49,397 bases of DNA from an uncultured archaeon (GTDB lineage: Archaea; Asgardarchaeota; Lokiarchaeia; Sigyniarchaeales; SOKP01), in contig CAZDTP010000026.1 of assembly GCA_964508365.1 (NCBI GenBank), positions 1-49,397 on the forward strand, read 5' to 3'. The position numbers were made by a program, and so were the translations under genes. Positions within the stretch are counted from its first letter, which is position 1, and each line of letters begins with the position of its first letter. Positions 16,375 to 49,397 of this stretch are shown one piece after another. The notes beneath the pieces are model-generated. The model was not told the DNA's origin. It made no database searches and saw nothing but the letters and a program-made list of their open reading frames with translations.

Positions 16375-17439
16375 TTACGCTTTTAGCTTATTTTTAAGTT
16401 TAACAGAAATTAGATCACCCATTTCTGTCGTGGTAAGTGTTTTTAAGCTATCATTTTTAATGTCAGTAGTCCTTCCTTCTAATAAAGCCTCTTCAACAGC
16501 ATAATCTATATCATTTCCTATTTCGGATGAATTAAACGATTCTTCGAACATTAATTTTACGCTTAAAATCGTGCCTATAGGATTTGCAATTCCTTTTCCA
16601 GCAATATCGGGGGCTGAACCATGAATTGGTTCGTACATTGACACTTTTCCGGGATGAATGTTTCCACTTGAGCCCATTCCCAGACTTCCTATAAGGAAAG
16701 CGCCTTCGTCGCTAATAATATCTCCAAACATATTTCCTGTGACTACCGTTTGAAATCTATAGGGTGCTCTTATTAGCCACTGGGTAAATGCATCAATGTA
16801 TATATCTTCCGTTTCTATGTTTGAATAGTTTCCACTCATTTCGTGAAAAATTTTTCTCCATAATTTACTTGTATACAAAAGATTAGCCTTATCAACGGAG
16901 GTAACAATTTTATGGCTCTTTCTTTTTGCAAACTCAAACGCAAATTTAATTATCCGCTCGCAACCGTATCTGGTGTAAAGCATTAAGTTCTCTGCTGAAT
17001 CTTCTCCCAAATTACCAATATTCTTATAAAGCCCTTCAGTATTTTCCCTCACAAAAGTAATGTCAATACCACTTCCTATAAACTCGCTTTTTAAAGGACA
17101 TTTTTCGCGAAGTACATCATATAATTTAATGGGTCTCAAATTAATATACAAATCTAATTCTTGCCGTATTTTCATAATAGCACTTTCTGCTACACCAGGG
17201 GATAAATCAGGCAAACCAAGAGCACCAAACAATAGTGCATCAGAATTTTTTATGACTTCAAACGATTTGTCTGGAAGGTTAGTTCCAAATTCTTTCCACA
17301 CTTCTCCTCCTGCTGGCGCGTCTTTAAATTCAAAATCATAATCAGTGAACTCTGAAACGATCTTGAGAATTTTAATTCCTTCGTTCACAACTTCGGGGCC
17401 GCAGCCATCACCACGAGTGATTGCTATTATTTTCTTCAT
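16375..17439 (-). CDS. leuB: 3-isopropylmalate dehydrogenase-family (beta-hydroxyacid oxidative decarboxylase)
   Basis: GDGCGPEV, LYINLRP, RENTEGLY, NMFGDIISD, EPIHGSAPDIAGKG. Family is secure; LeuB versus homoisocitrate-type specificity is not. Confidence 0.8.
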   Translation of the reverse strand: MKKIIAITRGDGCGPEVVNEGIKILKIVSEFTDYDFEFKDAPAGGEVWKEFGTNLPDKSFEVIKNSDALLFGALGLPDLSPGVAESAIMKIRQELDLYINLRPIKLYDVLREKCPLKSEFIGSGIDITFVRENTEGLYKNIGNLGEDSAENLMLYTRYGCERIIKFAFEFAKRKSHKIVTSVDKANLLYTSKLWRKIFHEMSGNYSNIETEDIYIDAFTQWLIRAPYRFQTVVTGNMFGDIISDEGAFLIGSLGMGSSGNIHPGKVSMYEPIHGSAPDIAGKGIANPIGTILSVKLMFEESFNSSEIGNDIDYAVEEALLEGRTTDIKNDSLKTLTTTEMGDLISVKLKNKLKA

Positions 17440-17610
17440 ACCGATTATTTATTATATTTTTAAAAGTTTACTCAGTATTTATATTAAAATTAGAAAAGAA
17501 AAAAATAAAGTTAATTAATTAAAAAAAAGAATAGATAAATAGAAAGAATTTGATTATAATTCACGAGCTAAGAATGTATAGAGTGAGATTTCTAATAAAA
17601 ATAATTAAGA

Positions 17611-23155: not shown

Positions 23156-24892
23156 CTAAGCGCCCCAAACGCTATCTAATTCTTCATCTGATACATTAAA
23201 AACTTCATTGTGTGGAGGTAATTTCTCTTTTAAGAAAAATTCTGGTAGTCTATCCTGTTTTTCTGTAAAACCTGCGGCTTTATTAAACTCTCTTTCAGTT
23301 TTTATGATTTGCAACCCATAACCAGGAACATCCGCTACAGTGAGACTCGTTCCTAATACGCCATTTAGCGTGTCAACAACACCCTCTAATCCTTCAGGAA
23401 TATCTAAGACTGCAAAAGCAATAAAAAGACAATACCCGGTCGCATCAACGGCAGCAGTAGCAATTTGTAAATTTCGCGATAATTCTGCTTTTTTAGTATC
23501 CCTAGGTTCTGCTGTTCCACCGACTCCCATGATTTCAGTGGCGATAGCGTATCCTGCTGTGTGATCTGCTCCCATAGGTGTAGTTGCATAAGTTACACCA
23601 ATTCCTTTAATTGCTCGGGGATCGTATGCAGGTAAGCTCTGGCCTTTTACAACAGGGACTCTGGTCACACCGAATGCTTGTGCTGTAAAAGCTGTACCGT
23701 TAGCTAAGATTCTCCCAGTTGGAGTCTTATTCTTAATTTCGTCTAATAACTTTAAAGCACCTTTTCCATTTCCAAATTCGGTTAAACCACCCTCCATTGC
23801 TACTCCAAGTAAACCCCCTGTTTCAATTGTATCCAATCCTAAATCGTTACAGGCTCTATTTAATTCTCCAATATCATCTAAATTGTAAATACTACAATTA
23901 GGACCTAGTGCCCATACACTTTCATACTCTAATACTCCAACGGGATCTTTTCCACCCGGTTTTGTCCATACTTCAGAACATTGGATAATGCATCCAGGAC
24001 TGCAGAAATGTGGACGAACTCCTCCTCGCTTCTTGATCTCCTCTGCTTTTACCTCTCCAGATACTTTTTCAGATCTGTCGTCTTGACCAGATGAAAAATT
24101 ACGCTGTGGTAACCCTCCAGCTTCATTTATTATATTTACTAATACACCTGTACCAAACGAATTAAGAGCTCCACCAGGTTTAGTTACATCGTGGCTGGTT
24201 AAAGCTTTCGCTAATTTTTTAATACCCATATTAAAAGCTTCTTCGTTCAGAATTTCCACTCCTGGCGCTCCAGTTTCATCAACTATAATGAATTTTAGCC
24301 CTTTTGAGGCCATGACAGCACCAAGTCCACCTCGTCCTGCGTATCTGCTGGGTAATCCTTCAGGATCGTTAAAACAGACTCCAGAAGCGGTCCCCCTTAT
24401 TTCAGCTGCAATGCCAACACCACAAATACCTACCTTATCACCAAATTCCTTATATAATTCTTTATAAGTGCTATAGAGTCCTTTATTTGACCACTTATTT
24501 GCTTTTATAAATTCAGCGCCATTATTTGTAATTTTCAGTAGATAATAATCTTCCCCTTTATGCTTACCTTCGATAATAACTGCTGCGATTCTCATTCTTC
24601 CTAATTTCTGACCAAAACTTGTGCCTGCATTTGCTTCTTTAATCCCCCCTGTTAATGGAGATTTTCCACCAACAGATATTCGACCAGATGTTGGAGCTAT
24701 TGATCCTGTAACCAGTCCTGGAGCAAATACAAGCTTATTATTTGCTCCTAATGGATGGCAAAGCGGATCAACTTCTTTCGCGACAATTGTGGAAGTAAGA
24801 CCTCGTCCACCTAAAGCTACAAAATCTGCGGGTACATCCTCAAATTTGGCTTCAAGTTTTGTCATATTTACTCTTAAAATTTTTTTTGACAT
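23156..24892 (-). CDS. aor: Tungsten-dependent aldehyde:ferredoxin oxidoreductase
   Basis: LGGRG, KSPLTGGIKEANAG, AGRGGLGAVMASKGLK, CxxGCxxxC, EYES, DDIGELNRACNDLGLDTI, GADH. Confidence 0.95.
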   Translation of the reverse strand: MSKKILRVNMTKLEAKFEDVPADFVALGGRGLTSTIVAKEVDPLCHPLGANNKLVFAPGLVTGSIAPTSGRISVGGKSPLTGGIKEANAGTSFGQKLGRMRIAAVIIEGKHKGEDYYLLKITNNGAEFIKANKWSNKGLYSTYKELYKEFGDKVGICGVGIAAEIRGTASGVCFNDPEGLPSRYAGRGGLGAVMASKGLKFIIVDETGAPGVEILNEEAFNMGIKKLAKALTSHDVTKPGGALNSFGTGVLVNIINEAGGLPQRNFSSGQDDRSEKVSGEVKAEEIKKRGGVRPHFCSPGCIIQCSEVWTKPGGKDPVGVLEYESVWALGPNCSIYNLDDIGELNRACNDLGLDTIETGGLLGVAMEGGLTEFGNGKGALKLLDEIKNKTPTGRILANGTAFTAQAFGVTRVPVVKGQSLPAYDPRAIKGIGVTYATTPMGADHTAGYAIATEIMGVGGTAEPRDTKKAELSRNLQIATAAVDATGYCLFIAFAVLDIPEGLEGVVDTLNGVLGTSLTVADVPGYGLQIIKTEREFNKAAGFTEKQDRLPEFFLKEKLPPHNEVFNVSDEELDSVWGA

Positions 24893-25003
24893 GATATTTC
24901 ACCTCAATTTTTAGGCATTTAATATATGTAATAGATGATTATTAAAATTACGTTATGTACATTGTGTAATAACGCTATATTAAACATACAAATAATAAAA
25001 AAA

Positions 25004-25126
25004 CAGGCCCGAGGGGATATGTTCAAGAAGCGCGAAGTACGCATCATATTGAACCCCCGATCTTCTGCTTTCTTCATACTCATTATGTAGGAGGCAGCTG
25101 CGATATCCATGCTTCGCCACGGGCCT
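25004..25126 (-). tRNA. tRNA-Arg (anticodon CCT) with two introns: 18 nt at 37/38 (25070-25087) and 30 nt at 58/59 (25019-25048)
   Basis: Acceptor AGGCCCG/CGGGCCT 7/7; D stem GCGA/TCGC; anticodon stem GCTGC/GCAGA around CT-CCT-A|A; T stem GGGGG/CCCCT with loop TTCAA|AT after removing the insert; both inserts fold as bulge-helix-bulge-like motifs. Confidence 0.92.
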
Positions 25127-25305
25127 AATTTTAAAATAATGAGTGTTATGATCTAAAAATCATAATAAAATAAAAAAGTAGAGATAATAGTGTGATCTTT
25201 TTAACCATAAAAGGAAACATAAATCAAAAGGTTTTAATTTTCAAATTTAATCTTACATATTATAATAGATTATTTTGAAATATTTTATTCTTTGAGTTAA
25301 TTAAA

Positions 25306-25581
25306 ATGGAAAAAAGAAATTATCAACAAGGCAAACCTGCAAGACCTATCGATTATTTGAAGGAATCTGTTGATAAAGTTATATTAATAAAAGTTAAGAG
25401 AAACCGTCTCTTCAGAGCAGTACTACGTTCCTTTGATGAGCATCTTAATCTATATATTGAAGATGCATCACAGCTTTTCGAATATATGGATGAAGATGGA
25501 AACATTAAAGAAGAACATGAAACTCTTGGCAATATTGTTTTACGTGGGGACAATGTCATCTTTTTAAACCTTGCAAGTTAG
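25306..25581 (+). CDS. lsm: Sm-like archaeal protein (Lsm/SmAP)
   Basis: RPIDYL, Sm1 SFDEHLNLYIEDA, Sm2 LGNIVLRGDNVIF. Confidence 0.93.
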   Translation: MEKRNYQQGKPARPIDYLKESVDKVILIKVKRNRLFRAVLRSFDEHLNLYIEDASQLFEYMDEDGNIKEEHETLGNIVLRGDNVIFLNLAS

Positions 25582-49183: not shown

Positions 49184-49397
49184 CTAATAGCGATTTCGTC
49201 TGCCGCCGCCTCCGCCTCGATTATACGAGTTAAATTGAGGAGGAGCTTTCTCAGTTACGACAACATTGGAAGCTTGAGGGCCTTTTTGACCTTCAGTAAC
49301 TTCGAATTCAACCTTATCGTTTTCGTTTAATGTTTTGTATTCGTCATCTCCACCTGCTAATGCAGAGAAATGAACGAAAACATCGGTACCATCTTCA
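49184..49397 (-). CDS. csp: Cold-shock domain protein (5' end beyond window) with a Gly/Arg-rich tail
   Basis: Hand translation: ...[70 protein letters not shown]; RNP-2 VFVHF. Confidence 0.93.

What the first reader, a model, noticed from the sequence alone, without database searches (positions are those of the whole stretch)
25004..25126. tRNA-Arg(CCT) interrupted twice, including a non-canonical T-loop intron at 58/59
Removing 25070-25087 and 25019-25048 restores a textbook cloverleaf. The second intron forms a BHB-like motif: G53-C56 (GTTC) pairs with intronic GAAC, the bulges are AA|T and AT|A, and the T stem shifts register in the precursor. Multi-intron tRNAs with non-canonical positions are established mainly in Thermoproteales. 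Default annotation may miss this gene, and the ORF track instead shows a spurious ORF here.
Basis: seen in the sequence. Interest (0 to 1): 0.7.

Follow-up and report, generated by a model that had tools for sequence, protein, structure and literature searches.

The report
Two-intron arginine tRNA, Asgard archaeon
This is a real arginine tRNA gene of a Loki-type Asgard archaeon, hidden from standard tRNA finders by two short introns (one in the anticodon loop, one in the T loop); it is well supported, but such multiply interrupted tRNA genes are already known in Asgard archaea.

Summary
On the minus strand of window 25004-25126, removing 25070-25087 (18 nt, position 37/38) and 25019-25048 (30 nt, position 58/59) gives a 75-nt cloverleaf that ARAGORN calls tRNA-Arg(CCT). 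ARAGORN and Rfam both miss the unspliced gene.

- **Host:** a Promethearchaeota (Lokiarchaeia-type Asgard) MAG, not a Thermoproteales genome.
- **Orthologs:** I found 32 in related MAGs. They show compensatory changes in the acceptor stem, which joins exon 1 to exon 3. Each intron is precisely present or absent in different relatives: one has no intron, one has only 37/38, four have only 58/59, and three carry an extra 45/46 intron.
- **Splice motif:** bulge-helix-bulge motifs are kept at both sites. In the window itself both motifs are slightly relaxed.
- **Machinery:** the genome encodes a catalytic EndA alpha subunit with the broad-specificity loop, a non-catalytic beta subunit, and RtcB ligase.
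- **Other copies:** I found no second tRNA-Arg(CCT).
- **Limit:** splicing is inferred. No RNA data exist for this locus.

Multi-intron tRNA genes in Asgard archaea are published (PMC5829648, PMC11291895, bioRxiv 10.64898/2026.10.13.758758), and this scan has reported them before on other DNA. This is therefore a new member of a known kind.

One side lead: a relative's T-loop intron is 87% identical to the T-loop intron of tRNA-Arg(GCG) genes, which hints at intron copying between tRNA genes.

The parts
25004..25126 (-). Whole tRNA-Arg(CCT) gene: 123-nt precursor, A1 at 25126, discriminator G73 at 25004, no encoded CCA
   Evidence: In-silico splicing plus ARAGORN. Found in 32 orthologs. Intron-less ortholog L035:432-506 scores 56 bits against Rfam tRNA and ARAGORN calls it Arg(cct).
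25088..25126 (-). Exon 1: acceptor 5' strand, D arm, anticodon stem 5' strand, loop nucleotides 32-37 (anticodon CCU = 25089-25091)
   Evidence: DNA contigs of related strains lose similarity exactly at 25088 and at 25126/25127.
25070..25087 (-). Intron 1: 18 nt at canonical position 37/38. Relaxed BHB: central helix CUCC/GAAG has 3 of 4 pairs (C34.A), bulges UA|C and AA|A, intron hairpin AUA/UAU
   Evidence: Absent precisely in L010, L018, L020, L035, L037, L042, L045 and L046. Intron-less orthologs read CUCCUAA, which fixes the anticodon as CCU.
25049..25069 (-). Exon 2: nucleotide 38, anticodon stem 3' strand, variable loop, T stem 5' strand, T loop 54-58
   Evidence: Similarity of a related strain's contig stops at 25049.
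25019..25048 (-). Intron 2: 30 nt in the T loop at 58/59. BHB: central helix G53-C56/GAAC 4 of 4 pairs, exon helix G49-G52/U60-C63 4 of 4 (register-shifted T stem), intron helix 3 of 4, bulges AA|U and AU|A
   Evidence: Absent precisely in L035, L044 and L045; replaced by unrelated 29-32-nt sequences at the same site in other orthologs.
25004..25018 (-). Exon 3: T loop 59-60, T stem 3' strand, acceptor 3' strand, G73
   Evidence: Compensatory changes with exon 1 at acceptor pairs 4:69, 5:68 and 6:67.
24997..25003 (-). Run of 7 T directly after G73: likely archaeal transcription terminator (inferred)
   Evidence: Seen in sequence. A T-rich stretch starts at, or one base after, this position in most orthologs.
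25152..25159 (-). TATA-like box UUUUUAGA at -33 to -26 (weak inference; AT-rich spacer)
   Evidence: Kept only in the nearest relatives (L003-L005, L007, L009); other clades carry other AT-rich boxes at about -30.

Best explanation
Window 25126..25004 (minus strand) is the only tRNA-Arg(CCU) gene found in a Lokiarchaeia-type Asgard archaeon.

Proposed mechanism:
- The gene is transcribed as a precursor of about 123 nt from an AT-rich promoter and ends at a T run.
- In the precursor, anticodon-loop nucleotides 32-35 pair with the 3' part of the 18-nt intron. T-arm nucleotides G53-C56 pair with GAAC near the end of the 30-nt intron.
- Each pairing forms a 4-bp helix flanked by two 3-nt bulges (bulge-helix-bulge, BHB).
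- For the T-loop intron, the exon-side helix needs the G-run T stem to slip by two positions.
- The heterotetrameric (alpha-beta)2 splicing endonuclease EndA cuts in each bulge. Its alpha subunit carries the broad-specificity loop.
- RtcB joins the three exons, CCA is added, and the 75-nt tRNA reads AGG codons.

Shown here: the gene, the exon borders, the conserved motifs and the presence of the enzymes. Inferred: transcription, cleavage and ligation.
For: - **Cloverleaf after removal:**
- **Boundary-free recovery:** the scanner recovers the same introns, and the reversed-sequence control gives 0 of 274.
- **Orthologs:** 32 in related MAGs. L035 has no intron, L044 has only 37/38, L010/L018/L020/L037 have only 58/59, and L042/L045/L046 have an extra 45/46 intron.
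- **Independent tRNA call:** L035 is a plain tRNA for Rfam (56 bits) and for ARAGORN.
- **Pair counts on 17 precursors:** 92.9% of cells are paired, against 33-50% when the 3' partners are slid. Changes on both sides occur in 3 acceptor pairs, 1 anticodon-stem pair and 4 intron pairs.
- **Unsupervised fold:** RNAalifold finds the acceptor, D and anticodon stems and both central helices.
- **BHB across orthologs:** the T-loop central helix is 4/4 in 26 of the 27 T-loop introns scored, despite unrelated intron sequences.
- **Related strains:** their DNA contigs diverge exactly at the predicted borders.
- **EndA alpha:** L001:1171-1773 has the Tyr/His/Lys triad and a K-P-R loop aligned to A. pernix K44/R46 (PMC3241643).
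- **EndA beta:** L002:1435-2040 has Ser in place of the catalytic His.
- **Ligase:** RtcB is present.
- **Need for the tRNA:** AGG is 5.1 per 1000 codons. No other Arg(CCT) gene was found.
Against: - No RNA evidence exists. No public RNA run holds the locus.
- In this genome both motifs are imperfect: a C34.A mismatch in the 37/38 central helix and a U.U mismatch in the T-loop intron helix.
- Free-energy folding prefers to pair A57-A58 with intron UU and uses a T-stem register one base off, so the strict BHB is not the predicted minimum.
- The z-score of the precursor fold is only -1.68.
- My search for a second Arg(CCT) gene cannot see genes with three or more poorly shaped introns. tRNA-Arg(UCU), which could also read AGG, was not located.
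Confidence: 0.92

Rival explanations
1. The locus is a decaying tRNA pseudogene that picked up two insertions and no longer yields a working tRNA.
For: Both splice motifs carry a mismatch in this genome. No RNA data exist.
Against: The gene sits at the same place upstream of the AFOR gene in about 30 genomes. Its exons are far better conserved than its introns and flanks, and stem changes are compensated. It is the only CCT gene found, while AGG codons are in regular use. The closest relative, L003, carries a different single mismatch in the same helix, so one mismatch appears to be tolerated.
Confidence: 0.04
2. It is tRNA-Trp(CCA): ARAGORN in intron mode slides the anticodon-loop intron by two bases and reads the anticodon as CCA.
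For: ARAGORN -i output on the one-intron version.
Against: Eight orthologs lack this intron and read CUCCUAA, which is anticodon CCU. ARAGORN itself calls L035 Arg(cct). The BHB places the cuts at 37/38. Better Trp(CCA) anticodon-arm candidates exist elsewhere in the genome, at C2:154601 and C6:83562.
Confidence: 0.01
3. The region encodes one of the small proteins (46-63 aa) listed by the ORF scan.
For: ORFs 24919-25110 (-), 24935-25090 (+) and 24980-25120 (-).
Against: In orthologs the two intron stretches vary by 0, 16-19 and 29-32 nt. These are not multiples of three and include complete absence, which breaks every frame. The conserved parts are exactly the tRNA exons.
Confidence: 0.01
4. 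The gene is real, but the T-loop insert is removed by a route other than EndA at a BHB, or is kept in a fraction of molecules. This would be because the thermodynamically favoured precursor fold lacks the 5' bulge.
For: The minimum free energy fold and RNAalifold pair A57-A58 with intron U23-U24, extending the central helix to 6 bp. Intron-helix pair 81:101 is unpaired in 10 of 17 sequences.
Against: The GAAC (or GAAU/GGAU) box sits exactly 2 nt before the 3' junction in 26 of the 27 T-loop introns scored, whatever the rest of the intron looks like. That fits the BHB rule. (alpha-beta)2 EndA with this loop is known to cut relaxed motifs, including ones that lack a bulge (PMC3241643; PMC3239211). 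No other splicing system for a 30-nt insert is known (established knowledge).
Confidence: 0.03

Closest known systems
Multi-intron tRNA genes of Asgard archaea (Kaneta 2018, PMC5829648; Valentin-Alvarado 2024, PMC11291895; Goswami 2026, bioRxiv 10.64898/2026.10.13.758758)
   Same: The host is an Asgard archaeon. One tRNA gene carries several short protein-spliced introns, one at 37/38 and one in the T arm. BHB motifs sit at the borders. The EndA background is (alpha-beta)2. Standard finders miss the gene. Relatives show repeated gain or loss.
   Different: The published focus is on Atabeyarchaeia and on Freyr-/Jordiarchaeaceae. This genome is Lokiarchaeia-type, a group those papers treat as having a moderate burden. 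I could not check whether this particular gene is in their tables, because no supplements are held.
Multi-intron tRNAs of Thermoproteales, e.g. Pyrobaculum islandicum tRNA-Pro(UGG) with introns at 25/26, 37/38 and 56/57 (review PMC4090602)
   Same: A canonical intron combined with a T-arm intron. The BHB is built partly from exon sequence. The EndA is heterotetrameric and carries the Crenarchaea-specific loop.
   Different: The phylum differs, and the host is a low-GC organism sampled from salt-marsh metagenomes rather than a hyperthermophile. The site here is 58/59, which the held review does not list by name (it lists 53/54, 56/57, 59/60 'etc.').
ARMAN-2 pre-tRNA-Cys(GCA) with a 59/60 T-loop intron, and pre-tRNA-Pro(GGG) with 53/54 plus 59/60 introns (PMC3239211)
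   Same: Short introns inside the T loop, cut by an endonuclease of broad specificity. Cleavage of the 59/60 intron was shown in vitro.
   Different: The ARMAN-2 enzyme is the three-unit epsilon2 type. A 59/60 intron uses the native T-stem register, whereas the 58/59 intron here needs the T stem to slip by two positions.
Aeropyrum pernix (alpha-beta)2 EndA with the Crenarchaea-specific loop (PDB 3P1Z/3AJV; PMC3241643)
   Same: The alpha subunit of this genome aligns over 171 residues (E 1.4e-33). The loop and its Lys-Pro-Arg are conserved, as is the Tyr/His/Lys triad. A separate beta subunit lacks the His.
   Different: Only sequence similarity was tested. Assembly and substrate range of the Asgard enzyme have not been measured.

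Membership tests
tRNA (Rfam RF00005), isotype Arg, anticodon CCU | The cloverleaf with its conserved nucleotides is recognised by independent tRNA models | tested here: met
   The spliced sequence is called tRNA-Arg(cct) by ARAGORN with score 117.4. It has 20/21 stem pairs and 6/6 conserved nucleotides. Intron-less ortholog L035 scores 56 bits against RF00005 (gathering score 29). The unspliced gene itself scores nothing.
Archaeal BHB intron at the canonical site 37/38 | The intron lies between nucleotides 37 and 38, and the mature loop is restored on removal | tested here: met
   Orthologs without the intron read CUCCUAA.
Archaeal BHB intron at the canonical site 37/38 | hBHBh' motif: a 4-bp central helix between two 3-nt bulges, flanked by two helices | tested here: met
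   In the window: central helix 3/4 (C34.A), exon helix 4/4, intron helix 3/4. This is the relaxed form. Twenty-one of the 23 37/38 introns scored have 4/4; the window and L003 have 3/4.
Non-canonical BHB intron (T loop, 58/59) | BHB motif at the exon-intron borders, with cuts after the second bulge nucleotide giving the mature T loop UUCAAAU | tested here: met
   Central helix 4/4, exon helix 4/4 in the shifted register, intron helix 3/4. The junction is unambiguous in this sequence. The mature loop is confirmed by L035 and L044. The free-energy fold prefers a variant without the 5' bulge.
Non-canonical BHB intron (T loop, 58/59) | Precise presence or absence among orthologs | tested here: met
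   Absent in L035, L044 and L045. Present in 29 others at 29-32 nt.
Non-canonical BHB intron (T loop, 58/59) | The host encodes an endonuclease type able to cut non-canonical sites, plus an RNA ligase | tested here: met
   Two EndA genes of about 200 aa: alpha with the triad and the K-P-R loop, beta without the His. RtcB is present.
Non-canonical BHB intron (T loop, 58/59) | The spliced RNA or the excised (circular) intron is observed; cleavage is shown in vitro | not testable with these tools
   No RNA run holds the locus.
Multi-intron tRNA genes of Asgard archaea | The host belongs to the Asgard archaea, and the gene carries two or more introns | tested here: met
   The neighbouring AFOR gene is 80-96% identical to those of Promethearchaeota MAGs (lineage). 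Two introns are present.
Split or permuted tRNA gene (considered) | Exons encoded at separate loci or in permuted order | tested here: not met
   All three exons are colinear on one strand within 123 nt.

The most novel reading that the evidence does not exclude
Position 58/59 of tRNAs with a G-run T stem (GGGGG/CCCCY) may be a recurrent landing site in Lokiarchaeia. Unrelated introns of about 30 nt would have been inserted there several times and copied between different tRNA genes.

Support so far:
- The orthologous Arg(CCT) gene carries several T-loop intron sequences at this one site that are no more than 70% identical to one another (the L047 intron against all others).
- The same site is occupied in Arg(GCG), Val(CAC) and Ile(UAU), all with G-run T stems.
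- The Arg(CCT) intron of L047 is 87% identical to the Arg(GCG) intron of L097, a species of the window's genus. It is at most 70% identical to any other Arg(CCT) intron. No shuffle out of 1000 reached 87%.
- L047's closest sisters have no T-loop intron.

This would be a concrete case of intron copying between tRNA genes. The 2026 census did not find that route to be general in its focal Asgard lineages.
Probability: 0.3. Interest if true: 0.5.

Novelty: new member of a known kind. Interest (0 to 1): 0.25.

Why it matters
For annotation, the only tRNA-Arg(CCU) gene found in this genome is invisible to ARAGORN and to the Rfam tRNA model. The same holds for a good share of this genome's tRNA set. 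Only 29-31 tRNAs are found in a genome rated 100% complete, and several ARAGORN calls have the wrong anticodon. A naive reading would wrongly report AGG as undecoded and would call small ORFs in place of the gene.

For biology, the locus adds a well-documented Lokiarchaeia example to the published picture of heavily interrupted Asgard tRNA genes. All intron states occur among close relatives, which makes it a convenient natural series for timing intron gain and loss. It does not change that picture. The intron family shared between Arg(CCT) and Arg(GCG) genes is the only part that touches an open question, namely how such introns arrive.

Tried and rejected
- **Finders on the unspliced gene:** ARAGORN (default, -i, -ps) and Rfam (gathering and E<=10) returned nothing.
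- **Trp(CCA) reading:** ARAGORN's reading of the one-intron version is rejected on the intron-less orthologs.
- **Small-protein reading:** rejected, because the intron length changes break every frame.
- **RNA evidence:** no RNA holder is listed for the locus. Laying four DNA runs gave contigs only, and run X1 laid nothing.
- **Second Arg(CCT) gene:** not found by BLAST of the precursor on the own genome, the Rfam tRNA search of the genome, ARAGORN -i, my scanner on 137 intergenic GC islands or an anticodon-arm scan. The C81 'CCT' solution with four introns is not accepted by ARAGORN and is taken as spurious.
- **tRNA-Arg(UCU):** not located.
- **Neighbour-gene tree:** the first tree was flawed, because six rows were a different downstream protein. 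I redid it with the AFOR coordinates.
- **Donor of the L047 intron in its own genome:** the BLAST hits were coincidences inside a coding gene. Arg(GCG) was not found in that 3.0-Mb MAG. In its sisters, Arg(GCG) has D-loop and variable-region introns but no T-loop intron.
- **Failed scripts:** one timed out.
- **Papers not held:** Marck and Grosjean 2003 and Sugahara 2007. I could therefore not confirm from text that 58/59 is a listed site in Thermoproteales.
- **Second GC island in the window (49184-49232):** not a tRNA, but the Gly/Arg-rich tail of a cold-shock-domain gene.
- **tRNAscan-SE archaeal mode and SPLITS:** not available here.

Full report
**What is there**

The + strand of 25004-25126 is a GC-rich island (about 56% G+C) in a spacer of a 33% G+C contig. 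It lies between an aldehyde:ferredoxin oxidoreductase gene (23156-24892, minus) and an LSM gene (25306-25581, plus). Read on the minus strand and with 25070-25087 and 25019-25048 removed, it gives 75 nt. ARAGORN draws these as tRNA-Arg(cct) with a 7-bp acceptor stem, U8, A14, G18G19, U33, a GUUCAAAU T loop and discriminator G. The ARAGORN score is 117.4.

The unspliced gene is invisible to ARAGORN in every mode. It is also invisible to all 4227 Rfam models, even at E<=10. Three small ORFs overlap it.

**Is it more than chance?**

I wrote a small SPLITS-like scanner. It walks back from every possible 3' end, may jump over any BHB-like candidate (about 87 candidates per region-strand), and checks the T arm, anticodon arm, D arm and acceptor in turn.

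Over 274 region-strands around intergenic GC islands of the genome, 16 reach at least 20/21 stem pairs with 6/6 conserved nucleotides. On the same sequences reversed, which keeps composition and pairing potential, none does.

**Host**

The neighbouring oxidoreductase has 80-96% identical copies in MAGs labelled Promethearchaeota/Promethearchaeia, that is Lokiarchaeia-type Asgard archaea. The genome held is 4.07 Mb in 149 contigs and is rated 100% complete. So this is not a Thermoproteales genome.

**Comparative evidence**

The gene sits upstream of the same oxidoreductase, or within 2.3 kb of it, in 32 other loci.

- **Stems.** In a gapless alignment of 17 precursors, 92.9% of the cells of the proposed precursor structure are standard pairs, against 33-50% when the 3' partners are slid by 1-3 columns. 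Three acceptor pairs change on both sides (C-G to U-A at 4:69, 5:68 and 6:67). These pairs link exon 1 to exon 3 across both introns. Pair 29:41 of the anticodon stem also changes on both sides.
- **Intron states.** L035 has neither intron. L044 has only the 37/38 intron. L010, L018, L020 and L037 have only the T-loop intron. L042, L045 and L046 have a further 30-nt intron at 45/46.
- **Independent tRNA call.** L035 is called tRNA by Rfam (56 bits) and Arg(cct) by ARAGORN. It settles the mature anticodon loop as CUCCUAA and the T loop as UUCAAAU. That disposes of ARAGORN's slid reading, Trp(CCA).
- **Turnover.** On a tree of the neighbouring gene, the 37/38 intron changes state at least 5 times, the T-loop intron at least 3 times and the 45/46 intron at least 2 times. 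One tight clade (L044/L045/L047) shows three states. This is a gene tree of a neighbour, not a species tree, so the counts are rough.
- **Related strains.** DNA contigs of related strains from other salt-marsh runs lose similarity exactly at 25049, 25088 and 25126/25127.

**The splice motifs**

I used the usual rule: a 4-bp central helix, 3-nt bulges and a cut after the second bulge nucleotide.

- **37/38 intron.** It has CUCC (nucleotides 32-35) against GAAG, with bulges UA|C and AA|A and a 3-bp intron hairpin. The C34.A mismatch is particular to this genome. Most relatives have GGAG, and the nearest relative, L003, has a mismatch at the neighbouring pair.
- **T-loop intron.** It has G53-C56 against GAAC, with bulges AA|U and AU|A. 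The exon-side helix is G49-G52 with U60-C63, which is the native T stem slipped by two positions. The intron helix has one U.U mismatch.
- **Across orthologs.** Across the 27 T-loop introns scored, whose sequences are often unrelated, the box GAAC/GAAU/GGAU stands 2 nt before the 3' junction in 26.
- **Free-energy folds.** The minimum free energy fold and RNAalifold find both central helices. They prefer to pair A57-A58 with two intron U's and shift the exon helix by one base. The strict BHB is therefore a conformer, not the predicted minimum.

**Machinery**

The genome has two EndA-family genes of about 200 aa.

- **Alpha subunit (L001:1171-1773).** It aligns to the catalytic alpha subunit of Aeropyrum pernix EndA (E 1.4e-33). 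The Tyr, His and Lys of the active site are present, as is the Crenarchaea-specific loop including Lys-Pro-Arg at the place of K44/R46. That lysine was shown to be needed for non-canonical introns (PMC3241643).
- **Beta subunit (L002:1435-2040).** It has Ser at the His position.
- **Ligase.** RtcB is present.

This matches the (alpha-beta)2 type with the L1 loop reported for Asgard archaea (PMC5829648).

**Need for the gene**

AGG makes up 5.1 per 1000 codons and 14% of Arg codons in long ORFs. No other CCT gene was found by five searches. A gene with three or more poorly shaped introns could still escape these searches.

**Context in the genome**

ARAGORN -i finds 29 tRNAs and Rfam 27 above threshold in a complete genome. 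Several ARAGORN anticodons are wrong. Its Phe(aaa) on C11 is Ala(GGC) with a D-loop intron. Its Lys(ttt) on C27 is Gly(GCC) with two introns. Its His(atg) on C73 is Pro(CGG).

T-loop introns of 29-34 nt also sit in Arg(GCG) at 58/59, and in Lys(UUU), Lys(CUU), Leu(UAA) and a CAU tRNA at 59/60.

**What is known**

Non-canonical and multiple introns with BHB motifs are classic for Crenarchaeota (PMC4090602). T-loop introns at 59/60 and 53/54 were cut in vitro for ARMAN-2 (PMC3239211).

For Asgard archaea:
- Kaneta 2018 mapped (alpha-beta)2 EndA and noted missing, probably disrupted tRNAs.
- Valentin-Alvarado 2024 reported 92-95% intron-containing tRNA genes in three complete genomes.
- A 2026 preprint counts 2.2 intervening sequences per gene in focal families. 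It finds the T arm to be the second main site, repeated gains, and BHB enrichment.

Earlier notes of this scan also describe Asgard multi-intron tRNAs, including 58/59 introns, and BHB introns of about 30 nt in protein genes of this same genome. I did not test those notes. The finding is thus a sound new member of a known kind.

**Side lead**

The T-loop intron of the Arg(CCT) gene in L047 is 26/30 identical to the T-loop intron of Arg(GCG) genes of the window's genus (L097). It is at most 70% identical to any other Arg(CCT) T-loop intron. The background between the two gene families is 45 +/- 13% with a maximum of 77%. No shuffle out of 1000 reaches 87%.

L047's sisters, L044 and L045, lack a T-loop intron. 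The two genes share the T arm (G-run stem, UUCAA|AU) around the site. All 58/59 hosts seen (Arg-CCU, Arg-GCG, Val-CAC, Ile-UAU) have a G-run T stem.

This suggests copying of an intron between tRNA genes at a site that a slippery T stem makes spliceable. A donor in L047's own genome was not found. The comparison was noticed post hoc.

**Verdict**

- The mechanism is inferred with high confidence from motif, comparison and enzymes, but no RNA has been seen.
- Novelty is low.

Noticed in passing
L047:780-808 versus the T-loop intron of the tRNA-Arg(GCG) gene in L097; own-genome copy at L083:159-188: The T-loop (58/59) intron of tRNA-Arg(CCT) in L047 is 87% identical to the T-loop intron of tRNA-Arg(GCG) genes in the window's genus. 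It is at most 70% identical to other Arg(CCT) introns. L047's sisters L044 and L045 have no T-loop intron. This may be intron copying between isoacceptor genes that share the T arm.
   Followed up: partly
G000 contigs: C62:15194-15295 (+), C18:38754-38856 (-), C60:77-179 (+), C1:86680-86830 (-), C25:38500-38639 (-), C60:about 17250-17450 (+): Further tRNA genes of this genome are hidden or mis-called by ARAGORN and Rfam because of T-loop introns of 29-34 nt. They are Arg(GCG) at 58/59; Lys(UUU), Lys(CUU), Leu(UAA) and a class-II-like CAU tRNA at 59/60; and a Val(CAC)-like gene with several introns.
   Followed up: partly
G000 C11:12805-12905 (-), C27:2819-2949 (+), C73:4895-4994 (+): ARAGORN -i reports Phe(aaa), Lys(ttt) and His(atg) here. 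Removing BHB introns at D-loop, position-26 or 37/38 sites gives Ala(GGC), Gly(GCC) and Pro(CGG) with 20-21 of 21 stem pairs.
   Followed up: partly
L042:2651-2785, L046:2650-2784, L045:686-790: In these relatives the same tRNA-Arg(CCT) gene carries a 30-nt intron at 45/46 in the variable loop, with central helix 4/4. The 37/38 intron is absent.
   Followed up: yes
L003 (record DATKTW010000130.1): The closest relative of the window (AFOR 96% identical, same two-intron archaeal tRNA) is filed as 'Candidatus Nanopelagicaceae bacterium'. The contig is clearly Asgard archaeal, so the MAG label or binning is wrong.
   Followed up: no
window 49187-49396 (-): A cold-shock-domain protein gene, cut by the contig end, ends in a Gly/Arg-rich tail ([11 protein letters not shown]). 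This coding tail causes the second GC island of the window.
   Followed up: partly
L127, L128, L129 (genomes of L047, L045, L044): A tRNA-Ile(UAU)-like gene (anticodon loop CUUAUAA) has a long insert after the anticodon arm and a 30-nt 58/59 T-loop intron, again with a GGGGG/CCCCC T stem.
   Followed up: no
window 25004-25126 and all orthologs: Position 27:43 at the top of the anticodon stem is G.A in all 17 aligned precursors, and the other orthologs show the same two letters, while pair 29:41 covaries. This is a conserved non-Watson-Crick pair of this tRNA family.
   Followed up: no
3' flanks of orthologs L010, L035, L044, L047: A few orthologs encode CCA after the discriminator. Most, the window included, do not and run straight into a T tract.
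   Followed up: no
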